Below are positions 1,880 through 3,902 of a stretch of 5,029 nt of DNA, piece after piece. Made by a program: the position numbers and the translations under genes. Source of the DNA: a virus; IMG/VR virus record IMGVR_UViG_3300015610_000694, positions 1 to 5,029 of that record. One strand, written 5' to 3'. The first letter of the stretch is position 1, and every line of letters starts with the position of its first letter. A model generated the notes under the pieces. It was not told where the DNA came from and ran no database searches. It saw only the letters and a program-made list of their open reading frames with translations.

Positions 1880-1970
1880 GGCGCGTAGTGTCAGCATCAA
1901 CGGTATTTACCACTACGAGGAAACGCATCAGTCATGGTTACCAGCGTGCGGATCATGGAAGCAAAAGTGA
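1761..1970 (+). CDS. alternative or overlapping Cys-rich small ORF (69 aa)
   Basis: GTG start with GAGG 7 nt upstream. Its stop overlaps an in-frame GTG (1967) of the next gene as GTGA. Its CxxC...WxxC...PxCxxW pattern resembles the 770..919 product. It overlaps ORF 1658..1879 by 119 nt, its GC1/GC2 pattern is atypical there, and GC3 drops after 1880. Confidence 0.3.
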   Translation: MSTCKGCQSCATQHAPSTEQTCGNCAEATPVERTTWIRCEARSVSINGIYHYEETHQSWLPACGSWKQK

Positions 1971-2377
1971 CTCGACCAGTCGTGTCTGACAACCTCATTG
2001 ACTGCCTGCGGGCGCTTGATGATTTCTGGAATTCCGGCAGCAACCCGCTACCGGGCGCTTCCGTTTTGGCATCGGCAGAACGAATGGCGAAATCTGGAAA
2101 GGAGAGCAGTTTGCGGGACGAGGCTATATGGGACGATGTCCGCGACCCCTATCGTGGCGTCCGTGTTGACGACGCCTTTCGCAAGCTCGCTCCGGTACAG
2201 CAGGTTTGCATACGCACGCATTTTTTCTGGTCAGCCGCGACGCCACTGGCAGGAATCCGGTACGTGGATTGGCGCGAGTTCAGGAAGATCGAGGCGGAGC
2301 ATGCCGCACTGCCTGAACAGGTCTATGAGCGAGCGCTGATCAACTCGATTGCCGAGATGGAGCGTGCATGCGCTTGA
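1934..2377 (+). CDS. putative late-gene antiterminator Q-like protein (up to 147 aa; start ambiguous among ATG 1934, ATG 1955 and GTG 1967)
   Basis: It occupies the position of lambdoid Q: after the nin-type genes and before a leader, terminator and lysis cassette. The size and the segments ALDDFW.. and VDDAFRKLAPVQQVCIRTHFFW loosely resemble the short QuuD/PF06530-type Q proteins as I remember them. The coding call is solid. The function is inferred. Confidence 0.5.
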   Translation: MVTSVRIMEAKVTRPVVSDNLIDCLRALDDFWNSGSNPLPGASVLASAERMAKSGKESSLRDEAIWDDVRDPYRGVRVDDAFRKLAPVQQVCIRTHFFWSAATPLAGIRYVDWREFRKIEAEHAALPEQVYERALINSIAEMERACA

Positions 2378-2583
2378 CGCCGGAGGATCAGGCCGTGGTC
2401 GTGCTCGACGCAATCCGTGATTGCATCAATCCAGAATCAGGAATGGCGCACCTGCCGGACGTGGTTGCGGTGTGCGTAGTGTCTGGCATTGAGCGGACTT
2501 TGGCCTACAAGATCATTGACCGATGGAACAACCAGTGCTGGCGCCGGATCGGAACAAGCATAGGATTTGTAAATGCCAAATAA
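2368..2583 (+). CDS. small winged-helix-like protein (71 aa)
   Basis: ATG 2368 overlaps the end of the Q-like gene by 10 nt. GC3 is about 66 percent. EDQAVVVLDAIRD...SGIERTLAYKIIDRW looks HTH-like and parallels the next ORF. Confidence 0.5.
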   Translation: MRLTPEDQAVVVLDAIRDCINPESGMAHLPDVVAVCVVSGIERTLAYKIIDRWNNQCWRRIGTSIGFVNAK

Positions 2584-2800
2584 CGGCTACACGCAAGCCG
2601 TACTTGATGCGCTGAAGGACGGCCCGAAGACATCAATTGAGCTTGTGCGCATCACTGGGCTGACCAAGTTGCAGGTTGGCGAGGTGTTGCGCGCGCTACG
2701 TGGGCGAACAATCAAGTCGCACCCGGTAAGGTACGAGCTGATACCAACAAACTGTGCATTTACAGATGGCAAAAATAGTTGTGAAATACGCGCGGGGTAG
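2573..2800 (+). CDS. small winged-helix DNA-binding-like protein (75 aa)
   Basis: ATG 2573 overlaps the upstream gene by 11 nt. YTQAVLDALKDGPKTSIELVRITGLTKLQVGEVLRALRGRTIKSHPVRYELI has a typical wHTH layout. The last ~18 codons are AT-rich and overlap the candidate promoter. Confidence 0.6.
   Translation: MPNNGYTQAVLDALKDGPKTSIELVRITGLTKLQVGEVLRALRGRTIKSHPVRYELIPTNCAFTDGKNSCEIRAG
2759..2787 (+). promoter_or_regulatory. candidate sigma70-type late promoter (pR'-like position)
   Basis: TTTACA (2759-2764), a 17-nt spacer, then TGAAAT (2782-2787), within the only AT-rich patch of the region. It lies ~175 nt upstream of the intrinsic terminator. The -10 lacks the conserved A at -11, so the sequence match is weak. 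Confidence 0.25.
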
Positions 2801-2859
2801 TGCGCTCTGCAACAACCGAATCATCCCCCTTGCGATCCGGCAGAGCGCGCTATTTCCGC
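2792..2859 (+). other. long imperfect hairpin (13-bp core stem, 29-nt apical loop)
   Basis: TAGTGCGCTCTGC (2798-2810) pairs with GCAGAGCGCGCTA (2840-2852) with one G-U pair. The stem is extendable by GCGG (2792-2795) pairing with CCGC (2856-2859). It begins at the stop codon of the upstream CDS. Confidence 0.5.
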
Positions 2860-2862
2860 CAT

Positions 2863-2930
2863 TGTGGGATAGCGCAGACTGGCAGCGCGTCGGGCTCATA
2901 ACCCGAAGGTCTGATTCGATCCCGCAACCA
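2863..2930 (+). tRNA. initiator-tRNA(Met, CAT)-like element lacking a foldable T arm (68 nt; probable tRNA relic or tRNA-like RNA)
   Basis: The acceptor TGTGGGA pairs with TCCCGCA over 7 bp (one G-U) and is followed by ACCA. U8 is present. The D arm is GCGC-AGACTGGCA-GCGC. The anticodon arm TCGGG-CTCATAA-CCCGA plus AGGTC is identical to the bacterial tRNA-fMet anticodon stem-loop and variable region. Only 8 nt (TGATTCGA) lie between the variable loop and the 3' acceptor strand, where 17 nt are needed for a T arm. Confidence 0.45.
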
Positions 2931-2937
2931 ATTTCAC

Positions 2938-2969
2938 AAAGCTCGCTTCGGCGGGCTTTTTTCATTTTT
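2938..2969 (+). terminator. rho-independent terminator (tR'-like position)
   Basis: AAAGCTCGC-TTCG-GCGGGCTTT forms a 9-bp stem (6-bp GC core, one G-U pair) with a UUCG tetraloop, followed by TTTTTTCATTTTT. It ends 3 nt before the holin ATG. Confidence 0.7.
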
Positions 2970-2972
2970 GCG

Positions 2973-3194
2973 ATGAACATTTTGGAAAAACACGAACTTG
3001 CGACAGAGGCGATCAAGGCTGCGCCGCCGCTCGCTGTTGTCGGTACGTCGCTTGCCGGAGCTGTATCGTGGAGCGACATCGCCTATGCCATGACGGCGCT
3101 ATGGATGCTGGTGCAGACGATATGGTTCGTTGGTGTTCGTCTGTGGCGCTGGAAGCACGGCAAACCGCTGGATACCGTAAAGGGAGACCGGTGA
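2973..3194 (+). CDS. class II (two-TMD) holin, pinholin-like (73 aa)
   Basis: This is the in-frame ATG within track ORF 2754..3194, whose upstream part crosses the tRNA-like element and the terminator. TMD1 AAPPLAVVGTSLAGAVSW is Gly/Ala/Ser-rich (compare GTSAGSAG in phage 21 S). TMD2 is IAYAMTALWMLVQTIWFVGV. The C-tail RLWRWKHGKPLDTVKGDR is basic. It is the first gene of a lysis cassette. No Shine-Dalgarno sequence is evident. Confidence 0.7.
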   Translation: MNILEKHELATEAIKAAPPLAVVGTSLAGAVSWSDIAYAMTALWMLVQTIWFVGVRLWRWKHGKPLDTVKGDR

Positions 3195-3403
3195 AGCTCG
3201 TCCCTCTATTCTGGAAAAGCTGGTCGTTCTGGCTGATGATCTTGACGGCGATCTTGGGCGGCATTGAAGCTGCGCTGCCGTTGTTCACGTCGGTAGTGCC
3301 GCCGCGCTCGTTTGCTGTGGCCTCAATGATTACCGGCATCGCTGCTGCCGTGGCTCGCACGATCCAACAGCAAAGCATGCATCCGAATGAAAAACCTGAT
3401 TGA
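3191..3403 (+). CDS. two-TMD membrane protein (70 aa), holin or antiholin partner candidate
   Basis: GTG 3191 overlaps the holin stop as GTGA, with GGGAG 4-5 nt upstream. The TMDs are FWKSWSFWLMILTAILGGIEAAL and FAVASMITGIAAAVARTI. It sits between holin and endolysin. Confidence 0.6.
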   Translation: MKLVPLFWKSWSFWLMILTAILGGIEAALPLFTSVVPPRSFAVASMITGIAAAVARTIQQQSMHPNEKPD

Positions 3404-3902
3404 GCTTTTCGCTGCATTTTTCTCTGCATTCCGCAGAGAAAACCAGCCAATTGCAGAGAAACCGACTACGCCTGCTGTAGCAGGCAAAGACACGGCGGCG
3501 CAGTTCATCGCCCGTTGGGAAGGCTGCAAGCTATCGGCCTATCAGGATGTCGTCGGCGTCTGGACTATCGGCTATGGCAGAACAACCAACGTTCACCCAG
3601 GCGATACCTGCACACAAGAGCAGGCCGATTCATGGCTCGCCGAAGAGGTCGAACAATTCAAGCGTGGCGTTCGTGGCGCCGTGCTGGTGCCGCTCAATGA
3701 CAACCAGCTCGCTGCCTGTACGTCACTTGCCTACAACATCGGTTTAGCTGCGTTCCGTGGCTCTACGCTGCTGCGCAAACTCAACGAAGGCGACTACCAA
3801 GGCGCTGCCGAACAGTTCCTTGTGTGGAACAAAGCGGGCGGGCGTGTTGTTCAGGGATTGGTTAATCGGCGTGCAGCAGAGCAAAAACTGTTTCTGTCGT
3901 GA
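3387..3902 (+). CDS. GH24 phage lysozyme (endolysin), 171 aa
   Basis: The catalytic triad spacing E-x8-D-x5-T is present in WEGCKLSAYQDVVGVWTIGYG. NDNQLAACTSLAYNIG and GLVNRRAAEQKLF are typical of T4/P21-type lysozymes. About 45 aa of N-terminal extension, starting MKNLIELFAAFFSAFRR, precede the catalytic domain. Confidence 0.9.
   Translation: MKNLIELFAAFFSAFRRENQPIAEKPTTPAVAGKDTAAQFIARWEGCKLSAYQDVVGVWTIGYGRTTNVHPGDTCTQEQADSWLAEEVEQFKRGVRGAVLVPLNDNQLAACTSLAYNIGLAAFRGSTLLRKLNEGDYQGAAEQFLVWNKAGGRVVQGLVNRRAAEQKLFLS

What the first reader, a model, noticed from the sequence alone, without database searches (positions are those of the whole stretch)
2791..2930. Initiator-tRNA-like element without a T arm inside the presumed late-operon leader
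Positions 2863-2930 have a paired 7-bp acceptor stem ending in ACCA and a good D arm. The anticodon stem-loop plus variable region (GTCGGGCTCATAACCCGAAGGTC) is identical to bacterial tRNA-fMet, including the three G-C pairs that mark initiator tRNAs. Only 8 nt occupy the place of the 17-nt T arm, so no cloverleaf can form. At 2791-2798 there is also CGCGGGGT, which is the exact 5' acceptor of tRNA-fMet including C1. That segment could pair with the same 3' strand (CCCGCA) and reproduce the C1xA72 initiator mismatch. Lambdoid phages such as 933W carry tRNA genes at this position, between Q and the lysis genes, so a decayed phage tRNA is the simple reading. However, retention of a perfect acceptor/CCA and initiator anticodon arm alongside a clean T-arm loss is odd. 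This would also fit a functional tRNA-like RNA, for example an RNase P processing site in the late transcript or a decoy for anticodon-loop nucleases such as VapC-type toxins that cleave tRNA-fMet. The functional ideas are speculation.
Basis: partly seen in the sequence, partly recalled or inferred. Interest (0 to 1): 0.7.

Follow-up and report, generated by a model that had tools for sequence, protein, structure and literature searches.

The report
Decayed phage initiator-like tRNA gene
The T-armless "initiator tRNA" is a recently broken copy of a normal 77-nt phage tRNA-Met gene that sister phages still carry intact at the same spot, so it is an ordinary young tRNA pseudogene, not a new kind of RNA.

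Summary
Window 2863-2930 matches Rfam tRNA above the curated threshold (36.9 bits, cut-off 29) with acceptor stem, D arm, an initiator-type anticodon arm and ACCA, but only 8 nt where the T arm should be. ARAGORN finds no bacterial tRNA there.

Related metagenome contigs settle what it is. Two (L009, L253) carry a clean 77-nt tRNA-Met(CAT) cloverleaf (62.7 bits) in the same slot. The slot lies between the same upstream hairpin and the same intrinsic terminator, ahead of the same holin gene. The other contigs form a stepwise series:
- intact;
- a 7-nt deletion between TCCC direct repeats that removes the 3' T-stem strand (8 contigs);
- a further 2-nt deletion (3 contigs);
- a further G>T, seen only in the window.

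The residual mini-hairpin shrinks from 4 bp to 3 bp to none.

The "perfect" rest of the molecule is what a very young deletion predicts, because the whole leader is 0-2 differences from the intact alleles. The upstream CGCGGGGT belongs to a conserved box. That box also heads leaders that carry a tRNA-Thr or no tRNA, so it is not an alternative acceptor strand.

Verdict: a tRNA pseudogene in a variable tRNA-cassette slot, comparable to the tRNA genes of phage 933W. Interest is low.

The parts
2863..2930 (+). 68-nt relic of a phage tRNA-Met(CAT) gene with an initiator-type anticodon arm. It keeps the acceptor stem, D arm, anticodon arm, variable region, A73 and CCA. The T arm is destroyed.
   Evidence: Rfam RF00005 36.9 bits with the T arm skipped. 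No ARAGORN call in bacterial mode, TV-loop call in mt mode. Alignment to the intact orthologues L009 and L253.
2912..2919 (+). T-arm remnant TGATTCGA. It is what is left of GGAGG-TTCGATC-CCTTC after a 7-nt deletion (TTCTCCC, between TCCC direct repeats), a 2-nt deletion (GG) and a G>T change at 2912.
   Evidence: Allelic series across 14 contigs. ARAGORN structures of the four alleles.
2890..2906 (+). Anticodon stem-loop TCGGG-CTCATAA-CCCGA with three consecutive G:C pairs and CAT at 2897-2899. With its flanks (2889-2911) it is identical to E. coli and other bacterial initiator tRNA.
   Evidence: Alignment A1; E. coli hits.
2784..2806 (+). It may be a regulatory or promoter element, or the 5' strand of the first leader hairpin. 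It is not part of the tRNA.
   Evidence: Present ahead of tRNA-Met, tRNA-Thr, tRNA-like and tRNA-free leaders. Mosaic breakpoints lie just upstream of it.
2790..2859 (+). Long imperfect hairpin of the leader. The core 9-bp stem is 2802-2810 with 2841-2849, extended outward by pairing of the box with GCTATTTCCGC.
   Evidence: Predicted fold of 2786-2968, z = -3.3. L224 shares it up to 2859 and diverges exactly where the tRNA starts.
2938..2968 (+). Intrinsic terminator (AAAGCTCGC-TTCG-GCGGGCTTT followed by a T run), 8 nt after the CCA and ahead of the holin gene.
   Evidence: Terminator scan. Conserved in all leader alleles. The hairpin sequence itself is generic and occurs in many unrelated genomes.
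2973..3194 (+). Holin gene (73 aa), the first gene of the lysis cassette. It is followed by a DUF7940 holin-like gene (3191-3403) and a GH24 endolysin (3387-3902).
   Evidence: PHROG 920 and 1356, PF25612, PF00959.

Best explanation
The element is a young pseudogene of a phage-borne tRNA-Met(CAT) gene. The parent gene encodes a normal 77-nt cloverleaf with an initiator-type anticodon arm. It sits as a discrete cassette in the non-coding stretch between the nin-like early genes and the lysis genes, directly upstream of an intrinsic terminator.

In the lineage of this window, a 7-nt deletion between two TCCC repeats (a replication-slippage signature; this is inference) removed the 3' strand of the T stem. 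A 2-nt deletion and a G>T change then eroded the orphaned 5' strand.

Without a T stem and T loop, the D-loop/T-loop elbow cannot form. That elbow is used by RNase P, by the modification and CCA enzymes and by the ribosome (established tRNA biology, not tested here). The RNA can therefore no longer act as a tRNA. It is presumably still transcribed as a passive part of the leader that ends at the terminator.

The untouched acceptor, D and anticodon arms reflect the short time since the deletion, not selection.
For: 1. Intact orthologues sit at the identical position in L009 and L253, with the same hairpin upstream and the same terminator and holin downstream. ARAGORN calls tRNA-Met(CAT) of 77 nt and Rfam scores 62.7 bits.
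2. There is a nested allelic series: intact (2 contigs), del7 (8 contigs, from at least 3 sequencing projects), del7+del2 (3 contigs), del7+del2+G>T (window only).
3. The residual hairpin shrinks stepwise from 4 bp to 3 bp to none. ARAGORN loses the gene in bacterial mode. The Rfam score drops from 62.7 to 36-37 bits.
4. The deleted TTCTCCC is flanked by TCCC repeats (read from the alignment).
5. The leader outside the T arm differs at 0/148 (L253) or 2/148 (L009) positions from the intact alleles, so the deletion is recent. Within the del7 population the background diversity of 8/431 sites gives P = 0.32 for no change in the 60-nt body, so its invariance carries no signal.
6. The slot is a swap-in tRNA site. 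Other alleles carry an intact tRNA-Thr(TGT), a 108-nt tRNA-like element, or nothing, with breakpoints at 2859/2860 and 2927-2933. A tRNA here is therefore dispensable for the phage.
7. Phage 933W has tRNA genes followed by a terminator in the equivalent position.
Against: 1. Both changes that followed the 7-nt deletion fall in the 10-nt T remnant and none in the 60-nt body. That is p about 0.02 if mutations were uniform over 70 nt (my post hoc calculation). It could mean constraint on the body or selection on the remnant.
2. The del7 form is fixed in a widespread phage population, so it is at least not harmful.
3. The leader as a whole is far more conserved between the window and L009 (1.4%) than fourfold-degenerate sites of the adjacent genes (29%). 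This fits recent exchange of the cassette but also fits constraint on the leader RNA.
4. No expression data exist, so a residual RNA-level role cannot be excluded.
Confidence: 0.85

Rival explanations
1. The T-armless RNA is kept because it still works as a tRNA-like RNA. It could be a decoy whose intact initiator anticodon arm soaks up a tRNA-fMet-cleaving toxin such as a VapC-type PIN nuclease. Or it could be a processing handle (acceptor helix plus ACCA) for RNase P in the leader transcript.
For: - Acceptor stem, ACCA and anticodon arm are unchanged in all 12 deleted alleles.
- The anticodon loop equals the canonical initiator loop, as a decoy would need.
- Later mutations cluster in the T remnant (p about 0.02, post hoc).
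- The del7 form occurs in at least three projects.
- Phage tRNAs are known to counter anticodon nucleases (PMC10264068).
Against: - Intact alleles exist in near-identical leaders, so the deleted form is a recent derivative, not a conserved design.
- The T-replacement segment is not conserved and loses structure stepwise.
- There are no compensatory changes anywhere.
- The invariance of the body is expected by chance at the observed diversity (P = 0.32).
- In the window allele the predicted minimum-energy fold even replaces the D stem with a new CAGACU/GGUCUG helix.
- Other alleles of the slot carry a tRNA-Thr or nothing.
- No toxin or nuclease context was seen in the window.
- The cited paper reports evasion through anticodon-loop mutations, not decoys, and says phages there generally avoid encoding tRNA-fMet.
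Confidence: 0.06
2. The relic has no tRNA-related function, but it is retained as a structural part of a short leader RNA (conserved box to terminator). For example, it could stabilise that RNA or set the folding context of the terminator that gates lysis-gene expression. This would be analogous to the short pR'-tR' transcripts of lambdoid phages.
For: - The leader 2786-2968 folds into three modules (hairpin, tRNA relic, terminator) with z = -3.3.
- The whole leader is much more conserved than neighbouring synonymous sites between the window and L009.
- All alleles of the slot hold some structured RNA or tRNA just before the same terminator.
- Short terminated pR' transcripts can be functional sRNAs (StxS; PMC7547250 abstract).
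Against: - The content of the slot is freely exchangeable and sometimes absent.
- The hairpin loop varies within the population, which argues for recent exchange rather than constraint.
- The promoter and antiterminator are not identified.
Confidence: 0.08

Closest known systems
tRNA genes ileZ-argN-argO of Shiga-toxin phage 933W, between Q/pR' and the stx and lysis genes
   Same: The tRNA genes lie in the non-coding stretch after the nin/Q region and before the holin and endolysin genes. They are followed by a rho-independent terminator. The window has NinB and YbcO homologues upstream and holin, endolysin and spanin-like genes downstream.
   Different: Here there is a single tRNA cassette (Met-CAT, or Thr-TGT in other alleles), and it is broken in the window. 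No Q homologue, qut site or sigma-70 promoter was recognisable. The host is unknown and is not E. coli: the DNA has no close match among GenBank phages.
Bacterial initiator tRNA (tRNA-fMet)
   Same: CAT anticodon, three consecutive G:C pairs in the anticodon stem, and identical 23 nt from position 27 to 49. A73-CCA and G2:C71 are also shared.
   Different: U1-A72 is a Watson-Crick pair instead of the C1xA72 mismatch. C11:G24 replaces A11:U24, and U3.G70 replaces C3:G70. The T arm is missing in the window. Even the intact parent is therefore a hybrid, not a canonical tRNA-fMet.
T-armless (TV-replacement-loop) tRNAs of nematode and other metazoan mitochondria
   Same: The overall shape matches: acceptor stem, D arm and anticodon arm, with a single unpaired stretch in place of the variable region and T arm. 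ARAGORN in mt mode labels the window 'TV-loop mtRNA-Met'.
   Different: Those tRNAs are conserved across species and, from my knowledge, work with specialised translation factors. This one is a recent derivative of a normal cloverleaf. Its replacement segment varies between near-identical phages, and no bacterial system is known to use such tRNAs.
Short constitutive pR'-tR' leader transcripts of lambdoid prophages (lambda 6S RNA, StxS)
   Same: A short non-coding stretch ending in a strong intrinsic terminator lies immediately upstream of the lysis or late genes (PMC7547250 abstract).
   Different: Neither transcription start, promoter nor antiterminator has been shown here. The content of the stretch is a swappable tRNA cassette.

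Membership tests
Canonical tRNA (Rfam RF00005) | Score at or above the curated gathering threshold | tested here: met
   36.9 bits against a threshold of 29, E = 3.1e-5, reached only by treating the T arm as a local deletion. The intact orthologues score 62.7 bits.
Canonical tRNA (Rfam RF00005) | 7-bp acceptor stem, 4-bp D stem and 5-bp anticodon stem with a 7-nt loop | tested here: met
Canonical tRNA (Rfam RF00005) | T arm: 5-bp stem plus a 7-nt TTCRANY loop | tested here: not met
   Only TGATTCGA remains. ARAGORN in bacterial mode finds nothing. The T arm is present as GGAGG-TTCGATC-CCTTC in L009 and L253.
Bacterial initiator tRNA (tRNA-fMet) | CAU anticodon and three consecutive G:C pairs (29:41, 30:40, 31:39) | tested here: met
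   TCGGG-CTCATAA-CCCGA is identical to the E. coli and L010 initiator tRNAs.
Bacterial initiator tRNA (tRNA-fMet) | Unpaired 1x72 (C1xA72), the main formylation determinant | tested here: not met
   T2863 pairs with A2926 as U1-A72. The proposed substitute C2791 belongs to an independent conserved box.
Bacterial initiator tRNA (tRNA-fMet) | A11:U24 in the D stem | tested here: not met
   The D stem is GCGC/GCGC, giving C11:G24.
Bacterial initiator tRNA (tRNA-fMet) | Aminoacylation by MetRS, formylation, and IF2 or P-site use | not testable with these tools
   This requires biochemistry.
T-armless (TV-loop) tRNA | A single unpaired loop replaces the variable region and T arm, while the other arms are kept | tested here: met
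   ARAGORN -mt calls 'TV-loop mtRNA-Met(cat)', 68 bases.
T-armless (TV-loop) tRNA | The architecture is conserved among orthologues | tested here: not met
   Orthologues have a full T arm (L009, L253) or three different remnants.
Lambdoid late leader (Q, pR'/qut, tR') | Intrinsic terminator between the early (nin) genes and the lysis genes | tested here: met
   Terminator at 2938-2959 plus a T run. NinB and YbcO lie upstream and holin and endolysin downstream.
Lambdoid late leader (Q, pR'/qut, tR') | Q-family antiterminator gene immediately upstream | tested here: not met
   The ORFs at 1934-2377, 2368-2583 and 2573-2800, and their counterparts in L003, L005, L009, L233 and L234, have no Pfam or PHROG match to an antiterminator. 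A novel family is not excluded.
Lambdoid late leader (Q, pR'/qut, tR') | Sigma-70 late promoter upstream of the terminator | tested here: inconclusive
   The consensus scan finds none in window 2300-3400 or L009 1800-2400. The conserved box at 2784-2806 could be a non-consensus or activator-dependent promoter.

The most novel reading that the evidence does not exclude
After losing its T arm, the initiator-like RNA was kept, and its T remnant was trimmed by selection, because the remaining acceptor helix, ACCA and canonical initiator anticodon arm still do something in the short leader transcript. The most interesting version is a decoy that titrates a host toxin cleaving tRNA-fMet. That would make it a bacterial or phage T-armless tRNA-like RNA with a function.
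Probability: 0.05. Interest if true: 0.7.

Novelty: new member of a known kind. Interest (0 to 1): 0.15.

Why it matters
As found, it matters little. It is one more phage tRNA pseudogene, although the route of its decay is well documented: a slippage deletion followed by stepwise erosion, visible across environmental contigs.

Two modest points of wider interest:
- The parent gene is an initiator-like tRNA-Met carried by a temperate-type phage in a 933W-like position.
- The stretch just before the lysis-gene terminator behaves as a swap-in slot for tRNA and tRNA-like cassettes.

If the rival reading were true (a functional T-armless tRNA-like decoy), it would be a new tool in the phage-host conflict over tRNAs. 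The evidence does not favour it.

Tried and rejected
1. Exact searches for the window's own T-armless sequence found nothing: the 42-mer in genome contigs and the 28-mer in viral contigs. A 31-mer of the D and anticodon arms found nothing in viral contigs and only L009 and L010 in metagenome contigs.
2. I spent the last genome-contig scan and one viral scan on the terminator 23-mer. It turned out to be a generic terminator hairpin present in hundreds of unrelated genomes. BLAST of the window against all those loci found no relatives. The host therefore remains unidentified.
3. GenBank phages have no close DNA relative. Endolysin identity is at most about 55%, to Acinetobacter phages. The tRNA region hits only generic tRNA-Met genes.
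4. More distant holin homologues (63-72% identity) sit behind tail genes with no leader, so they say nothing about the element.
5. The alternative acceptor strand CGCGGGGT (2791-2798) is rejected. The box is conserved ahead of tRNA-Thr and tRNA-free leaders, changes to CGCGGGAT in the intact-tRNA contigs, and pairs within its own hairpin. Its loose resemblance to the tRNA's 5' part (my count: 10 of 13 positions matching, with a 2-nt gap) is not distinguishable from chance.
6. The ARAGORN 'tRNA-Met' call on the del7 allele is an artefact. The local run shows a shifted acceptor with 3 non-pairs and a 3-of-5 T stem.
7. The search for a Q-like antiterminator and a sigma-70 promoter found nothing.
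8. The long ORF 2754-3194 that runs through the relic in frame with the holin was dismissed. It crosses an intrinsic terminator and a tRNA-derived sequence, and alleles differ there by 7-nt and 2-nt indels.

Full report
**Observation.** The window carries, at 2863-2930 on the + strand, a sequence with:
- a 7-pair acceptor stem (TGTGGGA/TCCCGCA, one pair being U.G);
- a GCGC/GCGC D stem with a 9-nt loop;
- the anticodon stem-loop TCGGG-CTCATAA-CCCGA;
- the variable region AGGTC;
- 8 nt (TGATTCGA) where a 17-nt T arm belongs;
- then A-CCA.

Rfam's tRNA model matches it at 36.9 bits (gathering score 29, E = 3.1e-5) by skipping the T arm. ARAGORN finds no tRNA in bacterial mode. Positions 27-49 are identical to an E. 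coli tRNA-Met with the classical initiator sequence and to a bacterial tRNA-fMet in L010. An intrinsic terminator follows 8 nt after the CCA (2938-2959 plus a T run). The described anatomy is therefore real and well above chance.

**Context.** Upstream lie a C5 cytosine methyltransferase fragment, NinB and YbcO homologues and three small ORFs without family matches. Downstream lie a holin (PHROG 920), a DUF7940 holin-like protein, a GH24 endolysin and spanin-like ORFs. This is a lambdoid-type layout, and phage 933W does carry tRNA genes followed by a terminator in the equivalent place. No Q-like protein and no sigma-70 promoter could be recognised. 'Late-operon leader' is therefore a reasonable inference, not a demonstrated fact. 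There is no close relative among GenBank phages, and the host is unknown.

**Relatives.** Exact-protein look-ups with the window's endolysin, holin, DUF7940 protein and the 75-aa upstream protein returned many short metagenome contigs of the same phage population, mostly 95-99% identical to the window where they align. A DNA-pattern scan and holin homologues added further contigs.

Two contigs from different datasets carry a clean 77-nt tRNA-Met(CAT) in exactly this slot: L009 (OFRO01003147.1) and L253 (ERZ724544). The slot is flanked by the same upstream hairpin and the same terminator and holin start. The T arm there is GGAGG-TTCGATC-CCTTC; ARAGORN gives a cloverleaf and Rfam scores 62.7 bits.

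All the other tRNA-Met-bearing contigs are nested derivatives:

| State | Sequence after GGTC | Contigs |
|---|---|---|
| Intact | GGAGGTTCGATCCCTTCTCCCGCAACCA | L009, L253 |
| del7 (loss of TTCTCCC between two TCCC repeats; removes the 3' strand of the T stem) | GGAGGTTCGATCCCGCAACCA | L002, L007, L008, L222, L223, L225, L231, L260 |
| del7 + del2 (GGAGG becomes GGA) | GGATTCGATCCCGCAACCA | L218, L229, L232 |
| del7 + del2 + G>T at 2912 | TGATTCGATCCCGCAACCA | window only |

The del7 contigs come from at least three projects. A local ARAGORN run shows what this does to the structure. The T-stem goes from 5 bp (intact) to a 4-bp mini-hairpin, then 3 bp, then no pairing. In bacterial mode the del7 form gets only a forced, mis-registered cloverleaf, and the last two forms get no call. 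This is stepwise erosion, not maintenance of a T-replacement structure.

**Is the 'perfect' remainder evidence of function?** It is not, at the available depth.
- Outside the T arm, the leader (148 nt, 2801-2911 and 2920-2956) differs from L253 at 0 positions and from L009 at 2 (2860 and 2861).
- Fourfold-degenerate sites of the two adjacent genes differ by 29% between the window and L009.
- The leader cassette, including unpaired spacers and the 31-nt hairpin loop, therefore shares very recent ancestry with the intact alleles.
- That same loop varies inside the del7 population (2815, 2824, 2825). Recent exchange of the cassette is thus a better explanation than constraint on every base.
- Within the del7 population the background is 8 variable sites in 431 coding nt, which gives P = 0.32 for seeing no change in the 60-nt tRNA body.

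One observation leans the other way. Both post-deletion events hit the 10-nt T remnant (about p = 0.02 if mutation were uniform over the 70 nt; my post hoc calculation). I record this as unexplained. The candidates are chance, a quasi-palindromic hotspot, removal of an exposed GGAGG or misfolding segment, or constraint on the body.

**The slot is a cassette site.**
- L224 shares the window's hairpin up to 2859 and diverges exactly where the tRNA begins.
- L003-L006, L219, L220 and L233 re-join the window at 2927-2933, exactly where the tRNA ends.
- In the same slot, L254 and L255 hold an intact tRNA-Thr(TGT) (ARAGORN; Rfam 60.2 bits).
- L219, L220, L262 and L264 hold a 108-nt tRNA-like element, truncated in L005 and L006. 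It has a 7-bp acceptor, a T arm and ACCA, and neither Rfam nor ARAGORN recognises it.
- L003, L004, L233 and L234 have no tRNA there.

A tRNA in this position is therefore optional for the phage, which fits easy loss.

**The upstream CGCGGGGT.** It is present at 2791-2798, inside a conserved box (about 2784-2806) that heads every leader allele. That includes alleles whose cassette is a tRNA-Thr with an unrelated acceptor, and alleles with no tRNA. In the intact-tRNA contigs it reads CGCGGGAT. In the predicted fold of 2786-2968 it pairs with 2850-2859 as the base of a long hairpin (z = -3.3). It is a separate element, perhaps regulatory, and not an alternative acceptor strand restoring C1xA72.

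**Mechanism.** The best-supported account (confidence 0.85) is as follows.
- The parent is a phage tRNA-Met(CAT) with an initiator-type anticodon arm but elongator-like U1-A72 and C11:G24.
- A slippage-type 7-nt deletion destroyed the T stem, and the orphaned strand decayed further.
- Without the T arm, the D/T elbow needed for processing and for ribosome use cannot form (established tRNA biology, inferred here). The RNA is then a dead tRNA carried passively in the leader.

Shown: the intact orthologues, the nested deletions, the loss of structure, and the cassette nature of the slot. Inferred: the slippage mechanism, loss of function, and transcription from the box to the terminator.

The rivals are a still-functional tRNA-like decoy or processing handle (0.06) and a purely structural role in a short leader RNA (0.08). 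Neither is excluded, and neither has positive evidence beyond the mutation clustering and the leader conservation. The literature on phage tRNAs and anticodon nucleases describes evasion through anticodon-loop mutations, and says phages there generally avoid encoding tRNA-fMet (PMC10264068). Here the loop is canonical.

**Comparison and novelty.**
- It works like, and descends from, an ordinary phage tRNA gene in a 933W-like position.
- It fails the T-arm criterion of a tRNA.
- It fails two of the defining initiator features (the 1x72 mismatch and A11:U24).
- It resembles mitochondrial TV-loop tRNAs in shape only, because the architecture is not conserved among its own orthologues.

It is a new member of a known kind, a phage tRNA pseudogene. 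Interest is low (0.15). One nuance: the first deletion is shared by a whole population, whereas the window's exact state is unique among the 14 contigs seen.

Noticed in passing
L254 1459-1534 and L255 510-585 (same slot as window 2863-2930): Other phages of the group carry an intact tRNA-Thr(TGT) in the slot directly before the same terminator (ARAGORN; Rfam 60.2 bits, with two non-canonical pairs in the anticodon stem). The slot is a swap-in tRNA cassette site with breakpoints at window 2859/2860 and 2927-2933.
   Followed up: partly
L219 about 430-537. Also in L220, L262 and L264; 5'-truncated in L005 (about 745-822) and L006: A 108-nt tRNA-like element occupies the same slot: GTCCCGT...GCACG-TTCGAAC-CGTGC-ACGGGAC-ACCA. 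It has a perfect 7-bp acceptor, a canonical T arm and ACCA, but an aberrant middle. The predicted fold is cloverleaf-like (z = -2.3). Neither Rfam (E up to 10) nor ARAGORN recognises it. L264 has a G>C change in the 3' acceptor strand.
   Followed up: partly
L003 about 775-860, L004 about 585-670, L219 about 350-405, L233 about 9955-10030, L234 about 2905-2990: A conserved leader module (AATTCGTAGCCAATGACAAGGC.GGCTGGGA.TTCCCGGCCAGACGAATGCCG) sits ahead of the terminator in leaders without the tRNA-Met. RNAalifold gives 17 pairs, 2 of them with compensatory changes among 5 sequences. There is no Rfam match. It is a candidate structured RNA of unknown role.
   Followed up: partly
L003 about 660-760; L005, L006, L233 (about 9630-9730), L234 (about 2350-2380): A second shared leader module begins with the hairpin GTTGAGTGCAAT...ATTGCATTCAAC. 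It continues CTCCTGACGTTCGACGAAATG.CGGGTTCATCCGTGTGGCGCAAGCCCTATATCGAGCGGTAGGA. There is no gene call and no Rfam hit.
   Followed up: no
window 2784-2806 and the equivalent position in all leader alleles: A conserved box, AAATAC(G/T)CGCGGG(G/A)TA(G/A)TGCGC, marks the start of every leader variant. Mosaic breakpoints with the upstream genes lie just 5' of it. In the different leader types it can pair with different downstream partners: GCTATTTCCGC in the window, CACTCCCCGC in L003, L005 and L006. It may be a late promoter or regulator site, or the 5' strand of a leader hairpin.
   Followed up: partly
window 2815, 2824-2825 against 2914: The 2-nt deletion occurs on both hairpin-loop haplotypes (L218 against L229 and L232), and so does the del7-only state. 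All four combinations exist within about 100 bp. This implies recombination, recurrent mutation or chimeric metagenome assembly.
   Followed up: no
L010 2262-2312 and 2388-2464: An unrelated bacterial contig has a bona fide tRNA-fMet gene preceded about 75 nt upstream by a partial copy covering the D arm to the variable region. It looks like an integration or duplication scar at a tRNA-fMet gene.
   Followed up: no
L004 46-478, L220 1655-2417, L224 661-924, L227 and L230 (between the nin-like genes and the holin): Some variants carry a reverse-strand insert of 2-3 small genes (58, 87-95 and 76 aa), preceded in L004 and L219 by an AT-rich stretch. It lies between the upstream genes and the lysis cassette and looks like a moron-type insertion. 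No family was assigned.
   Followed up: no
window 2938-2960: The terminator core AAGCTCGCTTCGGCGGGCTTTTT occurs verbatim in more than 120 unrelated bacterial genomes and 87 viral contigs. It is a generic UUCG-tetraloop terminator and useless as a marker for this phage group.
   Followed up: yes
window 1934-2800: Three small ORFs (147, 71 and 75 aa) occupy the place where lambdoid phages encode Q. They have no Pfam or PHROG match, apart from a weak sub-threshold HTH_5 hit for the 75-aa protein. The module is replaced by unrelated ORFs in L003, L005, L009 and L233.
   Followed up: partly
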